Shown: piece by piece, positions 4,299-13,209 of the stretch
Layout: every line of letters begins with the position of its first letter
How positions within the stretch are numbered: the first letter of the stretch is position 1
Assembly (NCBI GenBank): GCA_050180745.1
Contig: JBFXDW010000001.1
Coordinates: 1 to 44,586 of the forward strand
DNA length: 44,586 bases
Source: Bdellovibrionales bacterium
GTDB taxonomy: Bacteria > Pseudomonadota > Alphaproteobacteria > UBA9219
Direction of reading: 5' to 3'
Program-made: the position numbers and the translations under genes
Notes under the pieces: model-generated
The model's input: only the letters and a program-made list of their open reading frames with translations
What the model was told of the DNA's origin: nothing
The model's database searches: none

Positions 4299-6821
4299 CT
4301 ATACATTCCTTTTTACTCGTTTCAACCTTTTAGCAGCCTGCGACATAATCTGTCCCTGACTTGCACGGAAGCTGTCAGCGTTTGGCGTTGATACATTCAT
4401 GACCAAATTGACGCTTGAAGAACGGCGGCTTCGATCTTTCTTGGAAATGACTTCTTCGCCGCGTTGCAAAATGGCCGGAACTTCATCTGGTTTAAGGCCA
4501 GCGATCCCTCCGCTATGGTAGCGTGGTGCGCCCGCAAATACATGAGCTGGGACAGCACGTTTTGTTGTGGGATCACCAACCGTCCCCCCTTCATGGAAAA
4601 ACGAACTGATAATACTTCCTAAGAAACCACCGCTTGAATCACCGCTGCCTGTCAAACTGTTAAACAGAGGCGTTGTAATGCTCTGTTGAACAAGCATCCG
4701 CGTAATATCTTCAATGATTGAACTTGCAAAGTCATTAAGACTGCTCAAGCTAATCTCACCAGACGTAACCATACTGACAATCGCGTCCTCCGTTCCTTGC
4801 ATGGCTTCGGAAAAAACGCCTTCTATCGTTGTCGCTGTATCGGTTGCGCTGTCTTTATAGTTTTGAAAAGCACGAACAACTCCAGCGGCAGGATCCGTGC
4901 GCGAGGCAAGAAGATCGGCATCAGCTCCAGCCAAGGCGTTATTATAAGTGCCTTGGCTGATAGCCCCCGCATCTAGCAGTTGGTTAAGACGCGCTACTTT
5001 TTCCGCATAAAGTTCTGTTGCCGTCTTCGCTTCGTCTGTTAAATCTCGACCTTCTTCGCGGAGCCGATCAAGTTGTTCCTGAGCAGCCTTTTGATCATAG
5101 TAAGCTCCAGCAAGATCGCGCACTTGTGCTGCAAGTTGAGGCGAAGCCGTAGCGGGCAACGAGTTAACAGCTTCTTCTATAGCAAGCTGCCGAGCGGTCA
5201 TGCCCAGCTCTTCCATCTTATCGTTTAGGCCATCAATAACTTTCTGTGCTTCGGTGAAAGCTTTTTCATCAAAAATCTGACCAGCATAAAGTTTTGTCTG
5301 ATCGCGTTGCTCTTTTGTTGCCTTCCCAGACAAACGCGCAACAGCCTGATCAATAAAAGCCTGCCGCTCATCACTCATGCCAAGCAGCTTTTGCTTCAGA
5401 TCATCAACAATCTTCTGATTGGCATTGGCTTCTTTTTGTGCAGCTGCTGCAATGGGATCTTGAATAGCAGAGATTTTCATGCCCACTGCTTTTCGCACCG
5501 TTTCTATAGAAGAATCGATAATATCGCTATTTTTGTCTGTACGAGCCTTCTCCAATAAGGCCAGAGTTTGCTCCATACCTTCATTGATCTTTTGGATTTG
5601 GTAAGCAGGATTTTTTCCAAGAGACTTTTCAATAAGTTCTGCATAAGGTTGCGTGGTTTGGTTTATCAAAGATAAGACACGTTCTTCCTCTGCTGCTTTT
5701 AAGCCTTCTTCTGCCTGTTTCTTTTCCTCTTTTTCAGTCTCAATCTCTTTTTTTAATTTTTTAATTCGGTTGCGAAGCTCATCTGCACGTTCTGTATCAT
5801 CTGCAACTTTACCTCTTTTCAAGAACATCGCTGGGATATCGCGATTTTCTTCAAGTTCTTTTTCGACTTCAGCTAATTCTTTTACCGCATCACTCAGTTG
5901 TTTACTCAGCGACCCCGCAGAAACAACTTCCGTGGTAATTCTAAATGTTGAAGCAAGCTTGTTTAGGACGGCTTCGGCTGTTCCTCCAACGGTTTCTGTT
6001 TTACCAATGGTCTTGAGCATGTCGTCCCAAGCAACTGACAAACGATGCGCTGCACCCGTTAGGCCTTGTGCTTCTGCGCGGCCTGCACCGCCCACCTGCC
6101 CAGCCAGGGCATCAAGAATAAGCCCCTGTGCTTTGGCCAGATCGCCAGTTTTGACGAAGTTGGCGATAATCTTTTTCTGCTCATCGCTGAAACTAACGCC
6201 AACGCGCTTCAAGGCCGTGATGCCTGTAATAGGATCTTCAAGAGCTTTACCAAGCTGCGTGACGGAACCCCGCAGATCCTGTCCAAACACTGCCGACATA
6301 TCTTGGGCTAAATGAATGGATCTTTTAAACGTGTCACCCGTAACAGAACGAAACGTAGCCATAATACCGATAGCACCAGTCACTTCTTCTGAACTGGAAA
6401 GCGTGCTTTTCTCGATCCCATCGGCAAGCTCAAACATATTTTGTTTGGTTAGCCCTGCAGCATAGCCTGTTGCCTTCAAAACACCTTGGAGGCGGTTTTG
6501 AACTTGTTCCTCCTCCATCGTTGCCGCATAGGCAGCTTTAAGACCTAAAGTTACCGCCGCCAAGGCTGCCGCAGCAGCAAGTCCTGCGGGGCCGATCGCA
6601 GCAAGCCCCGATCCTAACGGCCCCATTTGAGAAGCCAGTCCTGTCGCTGCGCCCTTAACGTCATTGGCGGCAGCTCCGACAGCCCTTAGTGCTGTGGAGG
6701 CAGGTTTGCCAGCTTTGACAATCTCCTGCATAGATTTCTTGCCTGTCTTGCCAAACGAGACAAGCTGGGCTTGTCCCGTTTTTCCATCAACGACAAGCCG
6801 CACAGCGATGTTATGAGCCAT
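4299..6821 (-). CDS. Tail tape measure protein
   Basis: 840-aa ORF directly downstream of the G/G-T chaperone pair. It has long Ala/Glu/Lys-rich coiled-coil stretches and N-terminal hydrophobic Gly/Ala segments. Confidence 0.9.
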   Translation of the reverse strand: MAHNIAVRLVVDGKTGQAQLVSFGKTGKKSMQEIVKAGKPASTALRAVGAAANDVKGAATGLASQMGPLGSGLAAIGPAGLAAAAALAAVTLGLKAAYAATMEEEQVQNRLQGVLKATGYAAGLTKQNMFELADGIEKSTLSSSEEVTGAIGIMATFRSVTGDTFKRSIHLAQDMSAVFGQDLRGSVTQLGKALEDPITGITALKRVGVSFSDEQKKIIANFVKTGDLAKAQGLILDALAGQVGGAGRAEAQGLTGAAHRLSVAWDDMLKTIGKTETVGGTAEAVLNKLASTFRITTEVVSAGSLSKQLSDAVKELAEVEKELEENRDIPAMFLKRGKVADDTERADELRNRIKKLKKEIETEKEEKKQAEEGLKAAEEERVLSLINQTTQPYAELIEKSLGKNPAYQIQKINEGMEQTLALLEKARTDKNSDIIDSSIETVRKAVGMKISAIQDPIAAAAQKEANANQKIVDDLKQKLLGMSDERQAFIDQAVARLSGKATKEQRDQTKLYAGQIFDEKAFTEAQKVIDGLNDKMEELGMTARQLAIEEAVNSLPATASPQLAAQVRDLAGAYYDQKAAQEQLDRLREEGRDLTDEAKTATELYAEKVARLNQLLDAGAISQGTYNNALAGADADLLASRTDPAAGVVRAFQNYKDSATDTATTIEGVFSEAMQGTEDAIVSMVTSGEISLSSLNDFASSIIEDITRMLVQQSITTPLFNSLTGSGDSSGGFLGSIISSFFHEGGTVGDPTTKRAVPAHVFAGAPRYHSGGIAGLKPDEVPAILQRGEEVISKKDRSRRSSSVNLVMNVSTPNADSFRASQGQIMSQAAKRLKRVKRNV

Positions 6822-9038: not shown

Positions 9039-9676
9039 TTATCAGATGGCTCTATCCAATTTTGAGTAACTAAAGAGGAAATACTGTTTCCCCACTTCGT
9101 GGCTGCGCTTTTTACGTCCAGCCGTTTTTTAAGGGAAACTTGCGGGACAAGAACAAACATCGGCACAGTCATCTTTTTCTTTTTGGCTGTGCTACGGGCA
9201 AAATTACCGCGCTTGTTTATGCGCATGCTTTCCGCAACAAGAACGGGATTGTTTCCACCTTTGCGTTTGATAAATATCAGCTTTTGCTTGTATTTCTTTT
9301 CCCAGCTGCTCGGCGTAAGTTTTGTCCCTCGTGCTGCCTTCTTTCCCGCTGCAGGGAGAGGAACAGGTAAATACGCGCCCTTGTGAGAACGAATAACAGC
9401 CCCTGTGTTGAAGGCTGAAATAATGTGTGGTGCCTTGCTCCACACAAAACCAGCGGCATTGATGCTGTCTCTACTTTTCGGAAACACCTTACTTTGCCAT
9501 GTAAAAGCTAGTTTTTTTCCAAGGCCCGCACTGGAAACCTGATCCCTCAATTCAGATTTCAATCCGTTTGTTGACTCTTCAATACCAGTCTTAACAGCAC
9601 GACCAGCGGCTTTGATTTCGCGTTTCATGACCTTTTCCAGATCACCCCTCAAAGCAACAAGTAGGCGCGCGCTCAT
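9035..9676 (-). CDS. Phage neck/head-tail connector protein, family not recognised
   Basis: 213-aa basic ORF, overlap-coupled on both sides within the neck gene block. Confidence 0.6.
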   Translation of the reverse strand: MSARLLVALRGDLEKVMKREIKAAGRAVKTGIEESTNGLKSELRDQVSSAGLGKKLAFTWQSKVFPKSRDSINAAGFVWSKAPHIISAFNTGAVIRSHKGAYLPVPLPAAGKKAARGTKLTPSSWEKKYKQKLIFIKRKGGNNPVLVAESMRINKRGNFARSTAKKKKMTVPMFVLVPQVSLKKRLDVKSAATKWGNSISSLVTQNWIEPSDK

Positions 9677-9981
9677 ACCGGCACCGCATCAAGCGTCCAG
9701 ATCAAACGCTCCCTGTCAGCTTTGGGTTCAAGCTGCACCTGATAGGTCACGCCCCCCACAATCAATTGATCCCCTATTTGAGGCGATGCCACTTCCGCAG
9801 CCTGCACATCAAAAAGATGCGTTTCGCTGTGGATTTGCGCCTCGCCAAAGCTTGTAATCGTATCAGGCTGTTTGGTTATGACGCGCACGTCGAAACCAGT
9901 GCCGCCTTTAGGCTGATAAAAGGCAGCCTTAGACAGCACTGGATCGACGAAAAGCGGCTTGATGAGATCAGCAAGCGACAT
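9673..9981 (-). CDS. Head-tail joining / head completion protein
   Basis: 102-aa ORF and the first gene after the capsid gene. AAGGAG lies 12 nt upstream of ATG 9981. Confidence 0.65.
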   Translation of the reverse strand: MSLADLIKPLFVDPVLSKAAFYQPKGGTGFDVRVITKQPDTITSFGEAQIHSETHLFDVQAAEVASPQIGDQLIVGGVTYQVQLEPKADRERLIWTLDAVPV

Positions 9982-9984
9982 TGA

Positions 9985-10249
9985 GGGTCAAGGCTCCTTA
10001 AATTAACAAGTTCTGCGCGTAGCAAAAAAGCGCATCCAGCTATGAAAAGAACGCGGCTATGTATTGGGCATACAAGCAAGTTCTTTGAAGACGCTGGGGT
10101 GCTTTTTTGCCGCGCCCTTCGGGTTTCCATGGTCTTAAAAATGAGTGTGTCAACTTCGCTTGACGTATTCTTATACGCACGGCGCTCGTTTCCTGCTCAT
10201 TTTTAAGCCTATGGAAACAGAACGCCGTGAATTTAAAGAGCCTTGACCC
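9985..10249 (-). promoter_or_regulatory. Highly structured intergenic mRNA element (three nested helices) between the capsid and neck genes
   Basis: Three helices: outer arms 9985-10004 / 10230-10249, helix 10015-10040 / 10093-10115, and helix 10123-10145 / 10196-10218. See findings. Confidence 0.6.
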
Positions 10250-11265
10250 TACGTCCGCTTACCTTGCACTAATGCGCGTGGGCGTGTGCAAATCGGCAAA
10301 GGATTGCTCTGTGCATGCACTTCAACCCAACGGGCAAACTTCTCATCAATTGCTTGTTTGGCATAACGCGGCAAACCGACCGTATTAACCGTTTCTACAA
10401 AATCGGCAGGCGCATTGTATTGACGGAACAAGTTAGGCACACCGACAGGGAAGAAGTAAGCCTTGTCCGTATCTGTGAAATTAACGCTTCCAACTTTGCC
10501 GCGATATTCCTCAAACACAATGCCCGCATATTCAAAGCTGCCACGCGCCTGACCCTGACGCAGGAACAGCCCATCCATATAGCGATTATAAGCATCCTCG
10601 ACTTCCTGATGCGCGACGAGGTCGTCAAAGAAATTAGATCCGCAAATCGCATGGATATGATCATAGGGCTGTGCCCCAAGCTCATCTTCGATTGTACGCT
10701 TAACGGAATGGCACAACTTCTTGACTGCACCAGAGTCAGGATCTGCATTGTCAAGATCGAAATCGACCTCAGCCTGTTGTGCTACGCCAAACTCGTTAAA
10801 GAGGTTGTAGAGCACGGTCGAACCGTCAGCGTCGAGGATCTGCCCCTTGATCGCACCGATGCGCAAATGCTCCAATGTCGCATCCAATTTGCCTGCCATT
10901 TCCTGCAAGCGGAATTGAACGACCTGCTGAATGCTCTCCAAATCACTTTCGGAACCGAAGGCACGAACATTTTGAACTTCATCCGCAAGAATGGTGTCTT
11001 CCAAAGCGATATGAGGCACGACAAAAGATCGCGCTTTTCTTTTCTTCGTATGGTTCTGAACGGCGGGCGCGCCACGAGGGGTCGTTTCGACAAGGTTAAG
11101 ACTGCCTTCGCGTTCCTCGATCATAACCGATGTCGTGGTAACGCCGGACTCCATGAACAGACCAAGCTGCCCAATGCGTCCGGGAATAAAAGGCACCTTA
11201 TTGATGGCATCCGTCAGGGACACCACCGAGAAGGCGCTATTGCTAAAAACGTCCAAGGTAGGCAT
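10249..11265 (-). CDS. Major capsid protein, lambda gpE family
   Basis: ORF 10249..11307, with the start moved to ATG 11265 (MPTLDVFSNSAFSVVSLTDAINKVPFIPGRIGQLGLF...), preceded by an AGGA RBS. The longer ORF would read through a terminator-like hairpin. The gene follows decoration and protease genes as in lambda. Confidence 0.9.
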   Translation of the reverse strand: MPTLDVFSNSAFSVVSLTDAINKVPFIPGRIGQLGLFMESGVTTTSVMIEEREGSLNLVETTPRGAPAVQNHTKKRKARSFVVPHIALEDTILADEVQNVRAFGSESDLESIQQVVQFRLQEMAGKLDATLEHLRIGAIKGQILDADGSTVLYNLFNEFGVAQQAEVDFDLDNADPDSGAVKKLCHSVKRTIEDELGAQPYDHIHAICGSNFFDDLVAHQEVEDAYNRYMDGLFLRQGQARGSFEYAGIVFEEYRGKVGSVNFTDTDKAYFFPVGVPNLFRQYNAPADFVETVNTVGLPRYAKQAIDEKFARWVEVHAQSNPLPICTRPRALVQGKRT

Positions 11266-11289
11266 AAGATTTTTCCTTTCTGAAATGCA

Positions 11290-11320
11290 AAAGCCCCACC
11301 TCAACAAGAGGTAGGGCTTT
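11290..11320 (-). terminator. Terminator-like hairpin between the decoration and capsid genes
   Basis: Minus strand: AAAGCCCTACCTC-TTGTT-GAGGTGGGGCTTT followed by TGCATTTC. The stem is 13 bp with one mismatch. Confidence 0.45.
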
Positions 11321-11343: not shown

Positions 11344-11994
11344 TTAGATAGCTGAACGCACGATGATGGCTTCTTCTTTCAATTGAGCGATAGCCGTCGC
11401 TTTTTGATCATCCGTTGCGCCTGTAAACCAAACAAGTTCAGCTTCATTAGCTTCAGCATGACGAACAATAACTACGGCTTCTTTGTCCGCTTCACTCGCG
11501 TCGACATTATCAAGCGAAAGAGCGACAGCCTTTTCTGATCCATCGGTATTGGCGGGATTGTATTCTTTGTACTTACCCGATCCCGCCGTAACCGTTACGG
11601 CAAACTGATCGCCTGCCACAAAATCTGTGGAGCCAGCAGTCAAGGTGAAGTTAATTGCTCCTGCAAATGCCGAGCCGACTTCTGCAGACCCAATGGTTAC
11701 ACCATCTGGATCTTCGACAGAGAATGTCCCAGCTCCTGTGGCTGGCTCAATACAAGTGATTTTGTAATCACCTTCTTTTGCGCCCGTACCAACGGAAACG
11801 CTTGAGATTGTACCATCGCCTGTATTGCCAGAAGAAGCCGCACCAGAGGCATCGCCAACGGACACTTTGCCAAGGACATGCCCCGCTTCAAGTGTTTGTC
11901 CAGATAGGACGGTCACGGTTTCGCGTGAGATTGTCCCTTCGCCTTCGCTGACGATAAACTCGCCAGCATGTTGATTTTCTGTAACTTCAGTCAT
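11344..11994 (-). CDS. Head decoration protein (gpD-like) with an internal insertion
   Basis: 216-aa ORF. The N-terminus (GEFIVSEGEGTISRETVTVLSGQTLEAGHVLGKV) and C-terminus (AVALSLDNVDASEADKEAVVIVRHAEANEAELVW) fit decoration-protein families. It lies between the protease and capsid genes. Confidence 0.75.
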   Translation of the reverse strand: MTEVTENQHAGEFIVSEGEGTISRETVTVLSGQTLEAGHVLGKVSVGDASGAASSGNTGDGTISSVSVGTGAKEGDYKITCIEPATGAGTFSVEDPDGVTIGSAEVGSAFAGAINFTLTAGSTDFVAGDQFAVTVTAGSGKYKEYNPANTDGSEKAVALSLDNVDASEADKEAVVIVRHAEANEAELVWFTGATDDQKATAIAQLKEEAIIVRSAI

Positions 11995-11997
11995 TGA

Positions 11998-13209
11998 TTA
12001 GACTCCTTTTGTTTTGTTACGGGCTGCGTAGATCGCCGCCGTGTCGATCTTTGCTTCGGCGGATGGCATTGGCGTTGGAACATGTCCTGAGATTTCCGTG
12101 GCCTCTGCCTGCTTGACTTTTGTCTCCAAAAGAACCTGCCTGATGTCTGCGACAGGAACGGCTTTGGAAATGAAGGCGTTCGCTTTCTCAGTCATGCCTG
12201 CGATTGCGCACAAGTCATTTACCTCTTTGACGTAGGCCATAGCTTTCTCGTGTGCTTCGACCTTTGCTCGTTCGACAAGCGCTTCTGTCGACATTTGAGG
12301 TTCAAGAGGGGATTCCTCCGTCTGAACGGACGGAGTTTCTTTTGGTTTACTCATACTGTTCACCTTTCTGTTGATGATTGAGGGTTGAAGAGATAAAGAT
12401 GCCGCCAAATCGTTCATAGCGTCATCAAACGTGCCGAGCGTGTCGGCAAGACCAGCGGCAACGGCCTCTTCGCCAAAGAAGAGCGCAGCTTCGGTTTTGC
12501 GGATTGCAGCAGGAGTTACCCCACGTCTATCCGCAACGTCTTGAACAAAGATGTTGTAAATGCGATCAACTTCGACCTGTAAGGCGGTGCGCGCCGGATC
12601 TGATAAAGGCTCATGCTGGGAATAATCGTTCTTCCGTTTTCCAGCAAAAACAGCCGTGTATTTTAATCCTTCGTCTTCATCGGCCTGGCTTTGATCCAAA
12701 TGAACAGCGATCACACCGATAGAACCAACACCAGCCGTGCGAGAGACGTAAATTTTCTCTGCCGCAGAAGCCAATATATAAGCTGCCGAGAAACTTTCCT
12801 CATTAGCGACAGCCCAGACAGGTTTTGTTTGCCGCGCGGCATAGATTTGATCGGCTAAATCAAATACGCCGGAGGCTTCCCCTCCTGGGCTATCGATATC
12901 TAAAAGAATGGCCCGAACGGACATGTCTGACACAGCTTGTGCGATCTGCGCTGAAACTTCTGCATAACTTGTCAGACCGCTCAAAGCTTCAAGACCCATC
13001 GTGCGCCGCACGAGCGTGCCAAGAATTGGAATAATGGCAATACCATCGGGCGTGATCTGATAGGAGCGTGAATGTCCGCTTCCTTCTTTGGGAGGAAGAA
13101 CGTCTCCTTGTAACCGTGGAGCAATTACGCCAAGAATTACTTCCAGCTTGGCGTGGCTAATCATTAAAGGCGTAGAGAAAATACGCCCCGCAATATGTGG
13201 CAGGATCAT
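11998..13209 (-). CDS. S49-family (SppA/ClpP-like) head maturation protease / scaffold (gpC-like)
   Basis: 403-aa ORF with ILLDIDSPGGEASGVFDLADQIY and SAAYILASAAEKIYVS motifs. It has an ATGA overlap with the portal gene. Confidence 0.9.
   Translation of the reverse strand: MILPHIAGRIFSTPLMISHAKLEVILGVIAPRLQGDVLPPKEGSGHSRSYQITPDGIAIIPILGTLVRRTMGLEALSGLTSYAEVSAQIAQAVSDMSVRAILLDIDSPGGEASGVFDLADQIYAARQTKPVWAVANEESFSAAYILASAAEKIYVSRTAGVGSIGVIAVHLDQSQADEDEGLKYTAVFAGKRKNDYSQHEPLSDPARTALQVEVDRIYNIFVQDVADRRGVTPAAIRKTEAALFFGEEAVAAGLADTLGTFDDAMNDLAASLSLQPSIINRKVNSMSKPKETPSVQTEESPLEPQMSTEALVERAKVEAHEKAMAYVKEVNDLCAIAGMTEKANAFISKAVPVADIRQVLLETKVKQAEATEISGHVPTPMPSAEAKIDTAAIYAARNKTKGV

What the first reader, a model, noticed from the sequence alone, without database searches (positions are those of the whole stretch)
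9985..10249. 265-nt nested-helix RNA element that joins the capsid stop codon to the sequestered Shine-Dalgarno of the next gene
Seen: the gap between the capsid stop (TAG 10251-10249) and the next ATG (9981) is almost entirely self-complementary. The outer 20-nt arms are 9985-10004 and 10230-10249. The first inner helix pairs 10015-10040 with 10093-10115 (gcgcg..gcaaaaaagc..ccagc against gctgg..gcttttttgc..cgcgc). The second inner helix pairs 10123-10145 with 10196-10218 (21 of 23). The single imperfect position of the outer helix is a G-U wobble on the minus (mRNA) strand but a C-A mismatch on the plus strand, which supports function as RNA in the coding orientation. The 5' arm begins at the last base of the stop codon (10249). 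The 3' arm contains the AAGGAG SD of the head-tail joining gene. Established: phages often place hairpins after the major capsid gene to set capsid-to-minor-protein ratios, and SD sequestration is a standard translational control. Inference: a terminating ribosome on the capsid ORF would melt the outer helix and release the SD, which gives long-range translational coupling or attenuation. A MITE-like insertion is the alternative explanation.
Basis: partly seen in the sequence, partly recalled or inferred. Interest (0 to 1): 0.6.

Follow-up and report, generated by a model that had tools for sequence, protein, structure and literature searches.

The report
Mobile palindromic repeat in phage operon
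The 265-base self-pairing stretch after the phage capsid gene is one copy of a small gene-less mobile DNA repeat found across Alphaproteobacteria. It landed exactly between the capsid stop codon and the next gene's start, and it is not a control RNA that the phage evolved for itself.

Summary
Window 9983-10251 (minus strand) folds into a 24-bp outer clamp holding two long hairpins and a small one (-136.7 kcal/mol, z = -9.95).

The element is not phage-specific:
- Seven related phage or prophage loci (capsid 70-80% identical) were found. In the six compared, the capsid stop lies 1-13 nt from the FII-like start.
- A covariance model built from 23 copies finds three more full copies in the same assembly.
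- It also finds 1 to about 10 copies per genome in 23 of 71 genomes of the order, and in 19 of about 300 sampled genomes elsewhere in the class, including Sinorhizobium.
- Copies end TAGGG...CCCTA inside a Y-TA-R target.
- A filled versus empty nuoF-nuoG junction shows insertion into the TA of the stop codon, with TA duplicated.

The stems co-vary strongly, but G-U is no commoner than A-C, so the pairing is DNA palindromy, not an RNA signature. No cognate transposase was found.

One habit recurs across the family. Eleven copies bridge an upstream stop and a downstream start in sense orientation, against one in antisense.

The buried SD is real, but translational coupling through the clamp remains an untested inference.

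The parts
9983..10251 (-). Whole element: one 269-nt copy of the dispersed nested-palindrome repeat family, including the terminal TA (left) and TC (right, a degenerate TA)
   Evidence: Covariance model R1 matches it end to end, 245.6 bits, E = 1e-68. The fold has z = -9.95. There is no Rfam match.
10249..10251 (-). Capsid stop codon TAG. TA is the target-site copy and G is the first base of the element.
   Evidence: ORF 10249-11307 is Phage_cap_E, E = 3e-110. The family consensus starts TAGGG.
10227..10250 (-). 5' arm of the outer clamp (terminal inverted repeat). CUCUUU at 10240-10235 pairs with the SD.
   Evidence: the repeat finder pair I1, 24 nt, 92%. In helix 1 of the family, 27 of 31 pairs show changes on both sides.
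10218..10223 (-). Conserved GUUCUG that pairs with CAGAAC (10010-10015) and extends the clamp
   Evidence: Alignment A1 columns 29-34 with 269-274.
10124..10217 (-). Module A: a long hairpin with the conserved internal motifs AGGAAACGAGCG and AGCGAAGUUGAC and a variable apical hairpin
   Evidence: Pair I2, 10123-10145 / 10196-10218. In helix 2, 19 of 21 pairs show compensatory changes.
10115..10123 (-). Small hairpin CCC-GAA-GGG between the two modules
   Evidence: Invariant CCC / GGG columns with variable loops (GAA, UUCG, UAAA) in A1.
10016..10114 (-). Module B: the second long hairpin (GCGCGGCAAAAAAGC ... GCUUUUUUGCUACGCGC). Its core resembles the reverse complement of module A.
   Evidence: MFE fold, helices 6-11. 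Module A against rc(B) scores 48, versus 17 +/- 7 for shuffles.
9984..10007 (-). 3' arm of the outer clamp (terminal inverted repeat)
   Evidence: the repeat finder pair I1.
9994..9999 (-). AAGGAG Shine-Dalgarno-like motif inside the 3' arm, 12 nt before the ATG. The family consensus at this place is AUGAGU.
   Evidence: Sequence. Opening SD plus AUG costs 19 kcal/mol, and the full ribosome-binding site 38.8 kcal/mol. An SD core is present in 10 of 18 start-adjacent copies against 6 of 38 others.
9979..9981 (-). ATG of the FII-like head-tail attachment gene (9673-9981), 2 nt after the clamp
   Evidence: Phage_attach, E = 2.5e-22. tblastn alignments to relatives begin at residue 1.

Best explanation
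The 269-nt stretch is a copy of a non-coding, non-autonomous mobile DNA repeat of the MITE type. It consists of terminal inverted repeats that form a clamp around two mutually inverted hairpin modules. It transposed into the TA of the capsid gene's stop codon in a lambda-like prophage. There, capsid and FII-like genes were originally 1-13 nt apart and probably translationally coupled. The insertion duplicated TA. The element's first G rebuilt the stop codon as TAG, so the capsid C-terminus is unchanged. The FII start now lies 2 nt beyond the 3' arm, and that arm happens to supply an AAGGAG.

Shown: family membership, dispersal, the TA target, filled and empty sites, absence from related phages, and burial of the ribosome-binding site in the clamp.

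Inferred: on the late mRNA the element folds so that stop and start lie side by side. FII can then be translated only when the clamp is disturbed. That would happen most likely through ribosomes arriving at the capsid stop (the RNA-unfolding type of translational coupling, about 0.45). It is less likely to happen through RNase III cutting the roughly 31-bp clamp (about 0.25), or only at a low basal level. The phage tolerates this because an FII-type connector protein is needed in far fewer copies than the capsid protein. The enzyme that moves the element is unknown. The confidence given (0.85) is for the identity as a mobile repeat insertion; the translational consequences are much less certain.
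For: Fold and arms.

Lambda-type head module around the element (S49 protease, gpD, gpE, FII-like).

Absence from relatives: all six relatives compared, with 70-80% identical capsids, have 1-13 nt between capsid stop and FII start. None of them, nor a seventh 80% relative (L145), contains the element in the stretches fetched.

Dispersal:
- BLAST finds parts of the element in 20 of 61 related genomes.
- Model R1 finds 3 further full copies in the same assembly (C30, C55, C132; 187-193 bits).
- R1 finds copies in 23 of 71 genomes of the order.
- R1 finds full-length copies in 19 of about 300 sampled genomes of the class outside the order.
- Copies occur on Sinorhizobium pSymB-type replicons.

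Termini: TA is the first dinucleotide in 42 of 53 copies and the last in 39 of 53. A pyrimidine precedes the element in 48 of 53 and a purine follows in 48 of 52.

Filled versus empty nuoF-nuoG site in one genus: gcaTAActcATG against gctTA[GGATG...CATCC]TTactcATG.

Structure: 94.7% of cells are paired against 73.9% in shuffles, and 73 of 96 pairs have double changes. Yet G-U 117 against A-C 94 points to DNA palindromy.

Context: exact stop-to-start bridging in sense orientation occurs in 11 copies against 1 antisense. These lie in unrelated operons (nuoF-nuoG, murB-ddl, queE-queD, fliI-fliJ, fliG-fliH and others).

Ribosome-binding-site opening cost: 38.8 kcal/mol, falling to 26.5-17.8 with a ribosome at the stop codon.
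Against: - No autonomous partner or cognate transposase was found. IS200/RAYT-type (PF01797) and IS630-type (PF13358) genes do not track the element. The local copies of those genes have unrelated ends.
- The window copy's right-hand TA reads TC, so its own target duplication is imperfect.
- The interior loop motifs are more conserved than the arms, which is unusual for a plain TIR-MITE. That pattern could mean a structure-reading enzyme acting on single-stranded DNA.
- The sense-orientation bias is not explained by palindromic termini.
Every statement about translation is therefore inference.
- A ribosome at the stop codon is calculated to open only the first few pairs and does not reach the anti-SD.
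Confidence: 0.85

Rival explanations
1. A dedicated phage cis-regulatory RNA. On this view the nested helices evolved in the phage to attenuate or couple translation of the head-tail joining gene to capsid translation.
For: The stop codon and the SD plus start sit at the two feet of one 24-bp helix. The ribosome-binding site is strongly occluded. The arm carries AAGGAG where the family consensus has AUGAGU, and the partner base also changed, to give U.G.
Against: The element is absent from the six related phage loci compared. No copy was found in viral contigs by three conserved-motif probes followed by the model, nor in GenBank phages by BLAST. The same element sits in nuo, mur, que, fli and other bacterial operons. 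There is no G-U over A-C excess and no terminator-like hairpin.
Confidence: 0.04
2. A REPIN-like or other single-strand-DNA hairpin element. On this view it is moved by an enzyme that reads folded DNA (a RAYT/HUH-type or still unknown enzyme), not by a TIR-binding DDE transposase. The orientation bias would then reflect the replication strand.
For: Module A resembles the reverse complement of module B, as in a REP doublet. Interior loop motifs are conserved across the class while stems co-vary. Orientation is biased. Neither a DDE_3 nor any other partner was found.
Against: Y1_Tnp genes are present in only 8 of 23 element-bearing genomes, and they are absent from the genomes with most copies. 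The one in this assembly has unrelated flanks. The element has TA duplications in a Y-TA-R target and about 31-bp terminal inverted repeats. IS200/IS605-type and RAYT-moved elements are not known to have these. A 147-bp element with the same termini but a different interior exists in the host, which points to the termini as the mobility determinant. A GC-skew test of strand bias was inconclusive (7 of 11).
Confidence: 0.15
3. The same MITE insertion, but its effect on the phage works through RNase III. On this view the roughly 31-bp clamp is cut. That separates a hairpin-stabilised capsid mRNA from a short-leader FII mRNA, as in RNase III processing of Correia elements and of T7 intercistronic hairpins.
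For: The duplex is near-perfect: 24 + 6 bp in the window copy. In the family 95% of clamp cells are paired. RNase III cleavage at the paired ends of Correia elements in mRNAs is reported in the MITE review PMC10969869.
Against: No data on RNA ends are available. Cutting about 11-14 bp from the foot of the helix could remove the SD (9994-9999) from the downstream product. Alphaproteobacterial RNase III specificity was not examined.
Confidence: 0.2
4. A neutral passenger in a decaying prophage. On this view the insertion simply silences the FII-like gene, and the prophage no longer makes infectious particles.
For: The calculated cost of opening the ribosome-binding site is very high (38.8 kcal/mol). 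The element is an insertion.
Against: All neighbouring head and tail genes are intact open frames with full-length family matches. The same kind of exact stop-to-start insertion sits in operons that must stay functional (nuoF-nuoG, murB-ddl). Such insertions therefore do not abolish downstream expression.
Confidence: 0.1

Closest known systems
Correia / NEMIS elements of Neisseria (TA-inserting MITEs)
   Same: Both are gene-less and have terminal inverted repeats that pair into a long hairpin when transcribed. Both are flanked by a TA duplication, occur as dispersed copies next to and between genes, and have no cognate transposase identified. Their paired ends are RNase III substrates in mRNAs (review PMC10969869).
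   Different: There is no sequence similarity. Correia elements are about 100-200 bp with a simple interior and carry promoters and an IHF site. This element is 268 nt with two nested, mutually inverted hairpin modules and conserved loop motifs. No promoter-like site was found. It occurs class-wide in Alphaproteobacteria.
ERIC / IRU and YPAL elements of enterobacteria
   Same: Both are imperfect palindromes found inside transcription units, often just after stop codons. ERIC elements have orientation-dependent effects on the mRNA (an RNase E site unmasked in the 3' TIR; PMC10969869).
   Different: ERIC is 127 bp and forms a single hairpin. Exact stop-to-start bridging with an SD in the arm has not, to my knowledge, been described for ERIC. 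There is no sequence relation.
Chunjie MITE of Geobacter uraniireducens
   Same: It is a MITE of similar size (235 bp). Its title reports insertion into an operon without disturbing operon structure (cited in PMC3184786 and PMC10969869).
   Different: It belongs to a different phylum and has a different sequence. I could not read the original paper, so target and orientation rules were not compared.
REPINs (REP doublets) mobilised by RAYT transposases
   Same: In both, two related hairpin units lie in inverted orientation and form a larger palindrome, and the stems co-vary.
   Different: RAYT (Y1_Tnp) genes do not co-occur with the element. This element has about 31-bp terminal inverted repeats and a TA duplication, and its units are about 95 nt long, not 20-40.
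Annotated intergenic repeats of rhizobia (RIMEs, Sm-repeats, 'AB, C' palindromes) and Caulobacter CIR repeats
   Same: These are alphaproteobacterial intergenic repeats with conserved sequence and secondary structure (PMC2573895; CIR in PMC10969869). Diverged full-length copies of the present family lie on Sinorhizobium pSymB-type replicons (73-81 bits).
   Different: Whether any of those named repeats is this family could not be tested. The defining papers were not held, and the plasmid records carry no repeat annotation.
Translational coupling by RNA unfolding (phage f1 genes VII-IX, E. coli rpmI-rplT, MS2 coat-lysis)
   Same: In these cases the downstream ribosome-binding site is locked in a helix whose other strand is crossed or approached by ribosomes on the upstream gene (review PMC12548453).
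   Different: The known cases span at most tens of nucleotides (for example +52, +62). Here the partner strands are 220 nt apart and were brought in by a transposon. Function here is only inferred.

Membership tests
MITE (non-autonomous terminal-inverted-repeat transposon) | Terminal inverted repeats | tested here: met
   The window copy has 24-nt arms, 92% complementary. In the family clamp helix 95.1% of cells are paired and 27 of 31 pairs co-vary.
MITE (non-autonomous terminal-inverted-repeat transposon) | Short target-site duplication | tested here: met
   TA is at the 5' end in 42 of 53 copies and at the 3' end in 39 of 53, within a Y-TA-R context. Filled and empty nuoF-nuoG sites show TA duplicated. 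The window copy has TA on the left and TC on the right.
MITE (non-autonomous terminal-inverted-repeat transposon) | Multiple dispersed copies, with near-identical copies within a genome | tested here: met
   The window's assembly holds four full copies. Three of them are 96-98% identical to each other. There are 1 to about 10 copies in 23 of 71 genomes of the order.
MITE (non-autonomous terminal-inverted-repeat transposon) | Presence/absence at orthologous sites | tested here: met
   The capsid-FII junction is empty in all 6 related phage loci compared. The nuoF-nuoG junction is filled in G047 and empty in 5 congeners or relatives. The murB-ddl junction is filled in G039 and empty in 4.
MITE (non-autonomous terminal-inverted-repeat transposon) | Too small to encode a transposase | tested here: met
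   The element is 268 nt. Only incidental ORFs of 84 aa or less overlap it.
MITE (non-autonomous terminal-inverted-repeat transposon) | An autonomous partner with the same termini | tested here: inconclusive
   None was found. PF13358 and PF01797 genes do not co-occur with the element. A TIR pair 1.85 kb apart encloses housekeeping genes. The local IS630-like and IS200-like genes have other ends. Other transposase families were not tested.
REPIN / REP-RAYT system | RAYT (Y1_Tnp) gene present and flanked by the repeats | tested here: not met
   Y1_Tnp occurs in 8 of 23 element-bearing genomes and 9 of 48 others, and is absent from G051, G044, G015 and G019. The flanks of the gene in this assembly are unrelated.
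REPIN / REP-RAYT system | Two inverted copies of one hairpin unit | tested here: met
   Module A against the reverse complement of module B scores 48, versus 17.1 +/- 7.2 for shuffles (maximum 40). The similarity is concentrated in the central core.
Cis-regulatory structured RNA of a phage late operon | Conserved at the same locus in related phages | tested here: not met
   0 of 6 relatives carry it. The model finds no match in L119-L122 or L145.
Cis-regulatory structured RNA of a phage late operon | Covariation with an RNA signature (G-U tolerated, A-C avoided) on the transcribed strand | tested here: not met
   Counts are WC 3529, G-U 117, A-C 94, other 162 (p = 0.13). The bias has opposite signs in modules A and B.
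Cis-regulatory structured RNA of a phage late operon | Match to a curated RNA family | tested here: not met
   Rfam 15 gives no match at E <= 1.
Intrinsic terminator / post-capsid attenuator hairpin | G+C-rich stem followed directly by a U run | tested here: not met
   The scan found 0 terminator-like sites on either strand of 9800-10450. The T runs lie inside the module B stem, paired with A runs.

The most novel reading that the evidence does not exclude
The family may be a MITE specialised for operon junctions. It would insert into the TA of a stop codon and rebuild the stop with its own first G. Its clamp helix would place the downstream start codon beside the upstream stop, with an SD-like motif in the 3' arm. 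Translation of the downstream cistron would then stay coupled to the upstream one despite 268 inserted bases. Such a selfish element would be translationally transparent, which would explain three things: how it survives inside nuo, mur, fli and phage late operons; why exact bridges are 11:1 in sense orientation; and why start-adjacent copies more often carry GAGG/AGGA in the arm. In addition, the phage-borne copy is 70% identical to copies in other genera but only 52% identical to the host's own subfamily. That suggests that temperate phages ferry such elements between lineages.
Probability: 0.25. Interest if true: 0.65.

Novelty: new member of a known kind. Interest (0 to 1): 0.38.

Why it matters
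For annotation, this stretch should be labelled a mobile repeat, not a phage riboregulator. The covariance model built here recognises the family across Alphaproteobacteria, where Rfam has nothing for it.

Biologically, the family shows how a transposon can sit inside essential, tightly coupled operons and inside a phage structural operon. It uses the stop codon's TA as its target and restores the stop. If the clamp really preserves translational coupling over 220 nt, the family would be a natural test bed for the RNA-unfolding model of coupling. It would also be a ready-made insulating or coupling part.

The phage copy is also a rare documented case of a bacterial MITE carried on a phage genome.

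Tried and rejected
- BLAST of the element and its sub-parts against the window's own assembly found only the query. This would have wrongly cleared the MITE test. The three host copies are too diverged (52%) and appeared only with the covariance model.
- Rfam gave no match.
- GenBank phages and PLSDB plasmids gave nothing with the window copy or L112. Only a GC-rich copy (L116) hit Sinorhizobium.
- RAYT/IS200 (PF01797) and IS630 (PF13358) were tested as mobilisers. Neither co-occurs with the element, and their local ends are unrelated.
- A candidate 1.85-kb autonomous element in G064:C28 turned out to be two solo arms around an rlmJ-like gene and a peptidoglycan-binding gene.
- Three conserved 16-17-mers were scanned against IMG/VR. 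They gave 59 loci, and none contains the element.
- A metagenome scan and an exact-protein look-up for closer phage relatives found nothing closer than 80%.
- The test of orientation against replication strand, using GC skew of 20-kb windows in two near-complete genomes, was inconclusive: 7 of 11 concordant, with skews within +/-0.06.
- Promoter and terminator scans found none.
- The murB-ddl filled/empty comparison confirms an insertion between an ATGA overlap. It does not allow a clean reconstruction of the duplication.
- Papers defining RIMEs/Sm-repeats and Caulobacter CIR repeats were not held.

Full report
**The observation.** The minus strand of 9960-10270 folds to -136.7 kcal/mol, against -84.2 +/- 5.3 for dinucleotide shuffles (z = -9.95). 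The outer arms are 9984-10007 and 10227-10250 (24 nt, 92%). The inner pair is 10123-10145 with 10196-10218 (21 of 23). The element lies in a lambda-type head module on the minus strand:
- S49 protease, 11998-13209
- gpD-like decoration protein, 11344-11994
- gpE-type major capsid protein, 10249-11307
- a Phage_attach (FII-like) gene, 9673-9981
- a DUF6441 protein, a tail terminator and a tail tube protein

The capsid stop TAG (10251-10249) overlaps the first base of the 5' arm. AAGGAG (9999-9994) lies inside the 3' arm, and the FII ATG (9981-9979) follows the arm by 2 nt. Rfam 15 has no match. A consensus scan finds neither a promoter nor an intrinsic terminator on either strand.

**It is an insertion.** Seven phage or prophage relatives with capsids 70-80% identical were found in species genomes, IMG/VR and metagenomes. 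In the six compared, the FII-like gene starts 1-13 nt after the capsid stop. Examples are gcgTAAtcggggaaaagccATG in L002 and cctTGAtcATG in L003. The capsid C-terminus and the FII N-terminus align to the ends in all of them. The 265 nt are therefore extra DNA placed exactly between stop and start. None of these loci (L119-L122), nor a seventh 80% relative from the metagenome scan (L145), contains the element.

**It is a dispersed repeat.**
- BLAST of the element against its own assembly (1.79 Mb, 145 contigs; the window is the whole of contig C1) found nothing else.
- BLAST against 60 related genomes found parts of it in 20, several times per genome.
- Extending those matches showed that the whole 268-nt architecture is conserved, not just parts. 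It comprises the termini TAGGG...CCCTA and a clamp of about 25 + 6 bp. Inside are module A, a small CCC-loop-GGG hairpin and module B.
- The loop motifs are strongly conserved: GUUCUGUU, AGGAAACGAGCG, GAGCGAAGUUGAC, GGGCGCGGC, CUUCAAAGAGCUUG, UUUUCAUAGCCGGA and GCGCAGAAC.
- A covariance model (R1, 96 pairs) then found three more full copies in the window's own assembly: C30:4962-5229, C55:3730-3997 and C132:3320-3587 (187-193 bits). These three are 96-98% identical to each other but only 52% identical to the window copy.
- The window copy's nearest relatives (about 70%) are in other genera.
- R1 finds the family in 23 of 71 genomes of the order, across all three families, with 1 to about 10 copies each.
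- It finds full-length copies in 19 of about 300 genomes sampled from the rest of the class, at 70-150 bits.
- Diverged copies lie on pSymB-type replicons of Sinorhizobium chiapasense and S. medicae.
- The host assembly also holds decayed forms: two identical 33-nt solo-arm remnants, a truncated copy, and a 147-bp element with the same termini but a different interior.

**How it inserts.** Among 53 full copies the first two bases are TA in 42 and the last two are TA in 39. The base before is a pyrimidine in 48 of 53, and the base after is a purine in 48 of 52. This fits a 2-bp TA duplication in a Y-TA-R target. It does not fit a 4-bp duplication, because the outer bases usually differ.

A direct comparison within one genus shows the event. 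The nuoF-nuoG junction reads gcaTAActcATG (G041) or gcgTAGcatcATG (G037, G039, G045) when empty. When filled (G047) it reads gctTA[GGATG...CATCC]TTactcATG. The element entered the TA of the stop codon, and its first G makes the new stop TAG.

The window copy fits the same scheme: acgTA[GGGTC...GACCC]TCaATG. This is consistent with an ancestral TAAATG and one later change in the right-hand TA. That last step is inference.

**DNA palindrome or RNA structure?** The pairing is strongly maintained. 94.7% of cells are paired, against 73.9% in shuffles and 33-43% when partners are slid. 73 of 96 pairs have changes on both sides. The kind of imperfection does not favour RNA, however. In 41 non-redundant copies there are 3529 Watson-Crick cells, 117 G-U, 94 A-C and 162 others (p = 0.13). 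G-U exceeds A-C in module A, and the reverse holds in module B. Module B's core resembles the reverse complement of module A, so this is the pattern expected of mirrored DNA units.

**The mobiliser is unknown.** Y1_Tnp (IS200/RAYT) and DDE_3 (IS630) genes occur in 17 and 23 of the 71 genomes. They do not track the element. Several genomes with many copies (G051, G044, G015, G019) have neither. The copies of those genes in this assembly have unrelated ends. A promising pair of termini 1.85 kb apart encloses ordinary genes.

I applied a symmetric test to both ends of 58 copies.

| Feature | Sense | Antisense |
|---|---|---|
| ORF of at least 80 codons starting within -3 to +15 nt of the element's end | 20 of 56 (3' end) | 5 of 55 (5' end) |
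| Stop codon of an incoming ORF on the terminal TAG | 17 of 55 (5' end) | 12 of 56 (3' end) |
| Both together (exact stop-to-start bridge) | 11 | 1 |

The bridged pairs are unrelated operons: nuoF-nuoG, murB-ddl, queE-queD, fliI-fliJ, fliG-fliH, rfbC-epimerase, an ATP-synthase b subunit gene, and the capsid-FII pair here. The gene names come from my reading of the translated sequences. They were not scanned against a family library.

Because some of these downstream genes cannot be dispensable, the element must allow read-through and downstream translation. Start-adjacent copies carry an SD core (GGAG, GAGG, AGGA or AAGG) in the last 20 nt more often than other copies do: 10 of 18 against 6 of 38 (p = 0.004). 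This is partly confounded by subfamily. The palindromic termini cannot explain the orientation bias. A replication-strand explanation could not be tested properly.

**Consequences in this phage (inference).** In the folded mRNA, opening the FII ribosome-binding site (-18 to +12) costs 38.8 kcal/mol. Opening SD plus AUG alone costs 19.0 kcal/mol. Independent initiation should therefore be negligible at equilibrium. A ribosome with the capsid stop in its A site keeps the mRNA single-stranded through about +11 to +15. It then removes 12-21 kcal/mol of that cost but leaves 18-27. The anti-SD (10240-10235) lies 9-14 nt beyond the stop, at or past the edge of what the ribosome unwinds.

It belongs to the recognised RNA-unfolding class of translational coupling (review PMC12548453). 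RNase III cleavage of the near-perfect clamp, as known for Correia elements (PMC10969869), is the main alternative. A strongly reduced FII yield would probably be tolerated, because connector proteins of this type are needed in a few copies per virion against hundreds of capsid subunits (established for lambda; from my own knowledge).

**Comparison with known elements, and novelty.** In kind this is a TA-inserting MITE like Correia, ERIC or RUP, with a REPIN-like doublet interior. The Chunjie element is a precedent for a MITE inside an operon. Unusual features are its size and three-part nested architecture, the class-wide conservation of its loop motifs, the exact stop-to-start bridging with an orientation bias, and its presence on a phage. 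Three conserved-motif probes of IMG/VR followed by the model found no other viral copy. It may correspond to one of the named but poorly described rhizobial or Caulobacter intergenic repeats. I could not check this. Earlier notes of this scan describe similar TA-inserting and REPIN-like nested repeats in other alphaproteobacteria. I treated them as leads only.

**Verdict.** The structure is real. The coupling idea survives as an untested hypothesis about how this whole repeat family is tolerated at operon junctions.

Noticed in passing
G000 contigs C30:4962-5229, C55:3730-3997, C132:3320-3587 (same assembly, outside the window): Three full copies of a second subfamily of the element (termini TAGGGCGTGCCGTCAAATAAAAGG...). 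They are 96-98% identical to each other, which implies recent transposition in the host. They are only 52% identical to the prophage copy.
   Followed up: yes
G000 contigs C15:19643-19675 and C19:2285-2317: Two identical 33-nt remnants (TAGGGCG joined directly to the right arm, TTCCTTTTATTTGACGACACGCCCTA). They are either deletion scars left by loss of the palindrome or a mobile mini-form. The one on C15 appears to sit on a stop codon.
   Followed up: partly
G000 contig C25:217-363: A 147-bp element with the same terminal inverted repeats but an unrelated interior. This suggests that the termini, not the nested hairpins, are what the unknown enzyme needs.
   Followed up: no
G000 contig C99 end (6637-6662) and C132:3320-3587: Contig C99 ends 26 nt into a copy whose flank is the reverse complement of the 3' flank of the C132 copy. 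The assembly therefore broke inside the palindrome, and the two contigs are probably adjacent.
   Followed up: partly
L092 (G064:C28:120863-122717): Two solo arms of the element 1.85 kb apart bracket an rlmJ-like methyltransferase gene and a peptidoglycan-binding protein gene. One arm supplies the TAG stop of the upstream 108-codon gene.
   Followed up: partly
L117 1395-1647 and L118 1376-1648 (Sinorhizobium chiapasense pSchITTGS70d; S. medicae pSymB): Diverged full-length members of the family (73-81 bits) lie in cultured rhizobia. These would be convenient organisms for experiments and for linking the family to the old Sm-repeat / RIME annotation.
   Followed up: partly
window 9982-10248: In phage lambda the gene Fi lies between E and FII. 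This phage and its relatives have no gene there, so the insertion occupies the position where lambda carries Fi. No protein-coding signal was seen in the 265 nt.
   Followed up: no
window, whole contig (1-44586): The contig has no terminal overlap. Its tetranucleotide usage matches the rest of the bin as well as other contigs do (r = 0.90 against 0.80-0.88). The binning of this phage contig with this host therefore looks sound, although the MITE subfamily it carries is foreign to the host.
   Followed up: partly
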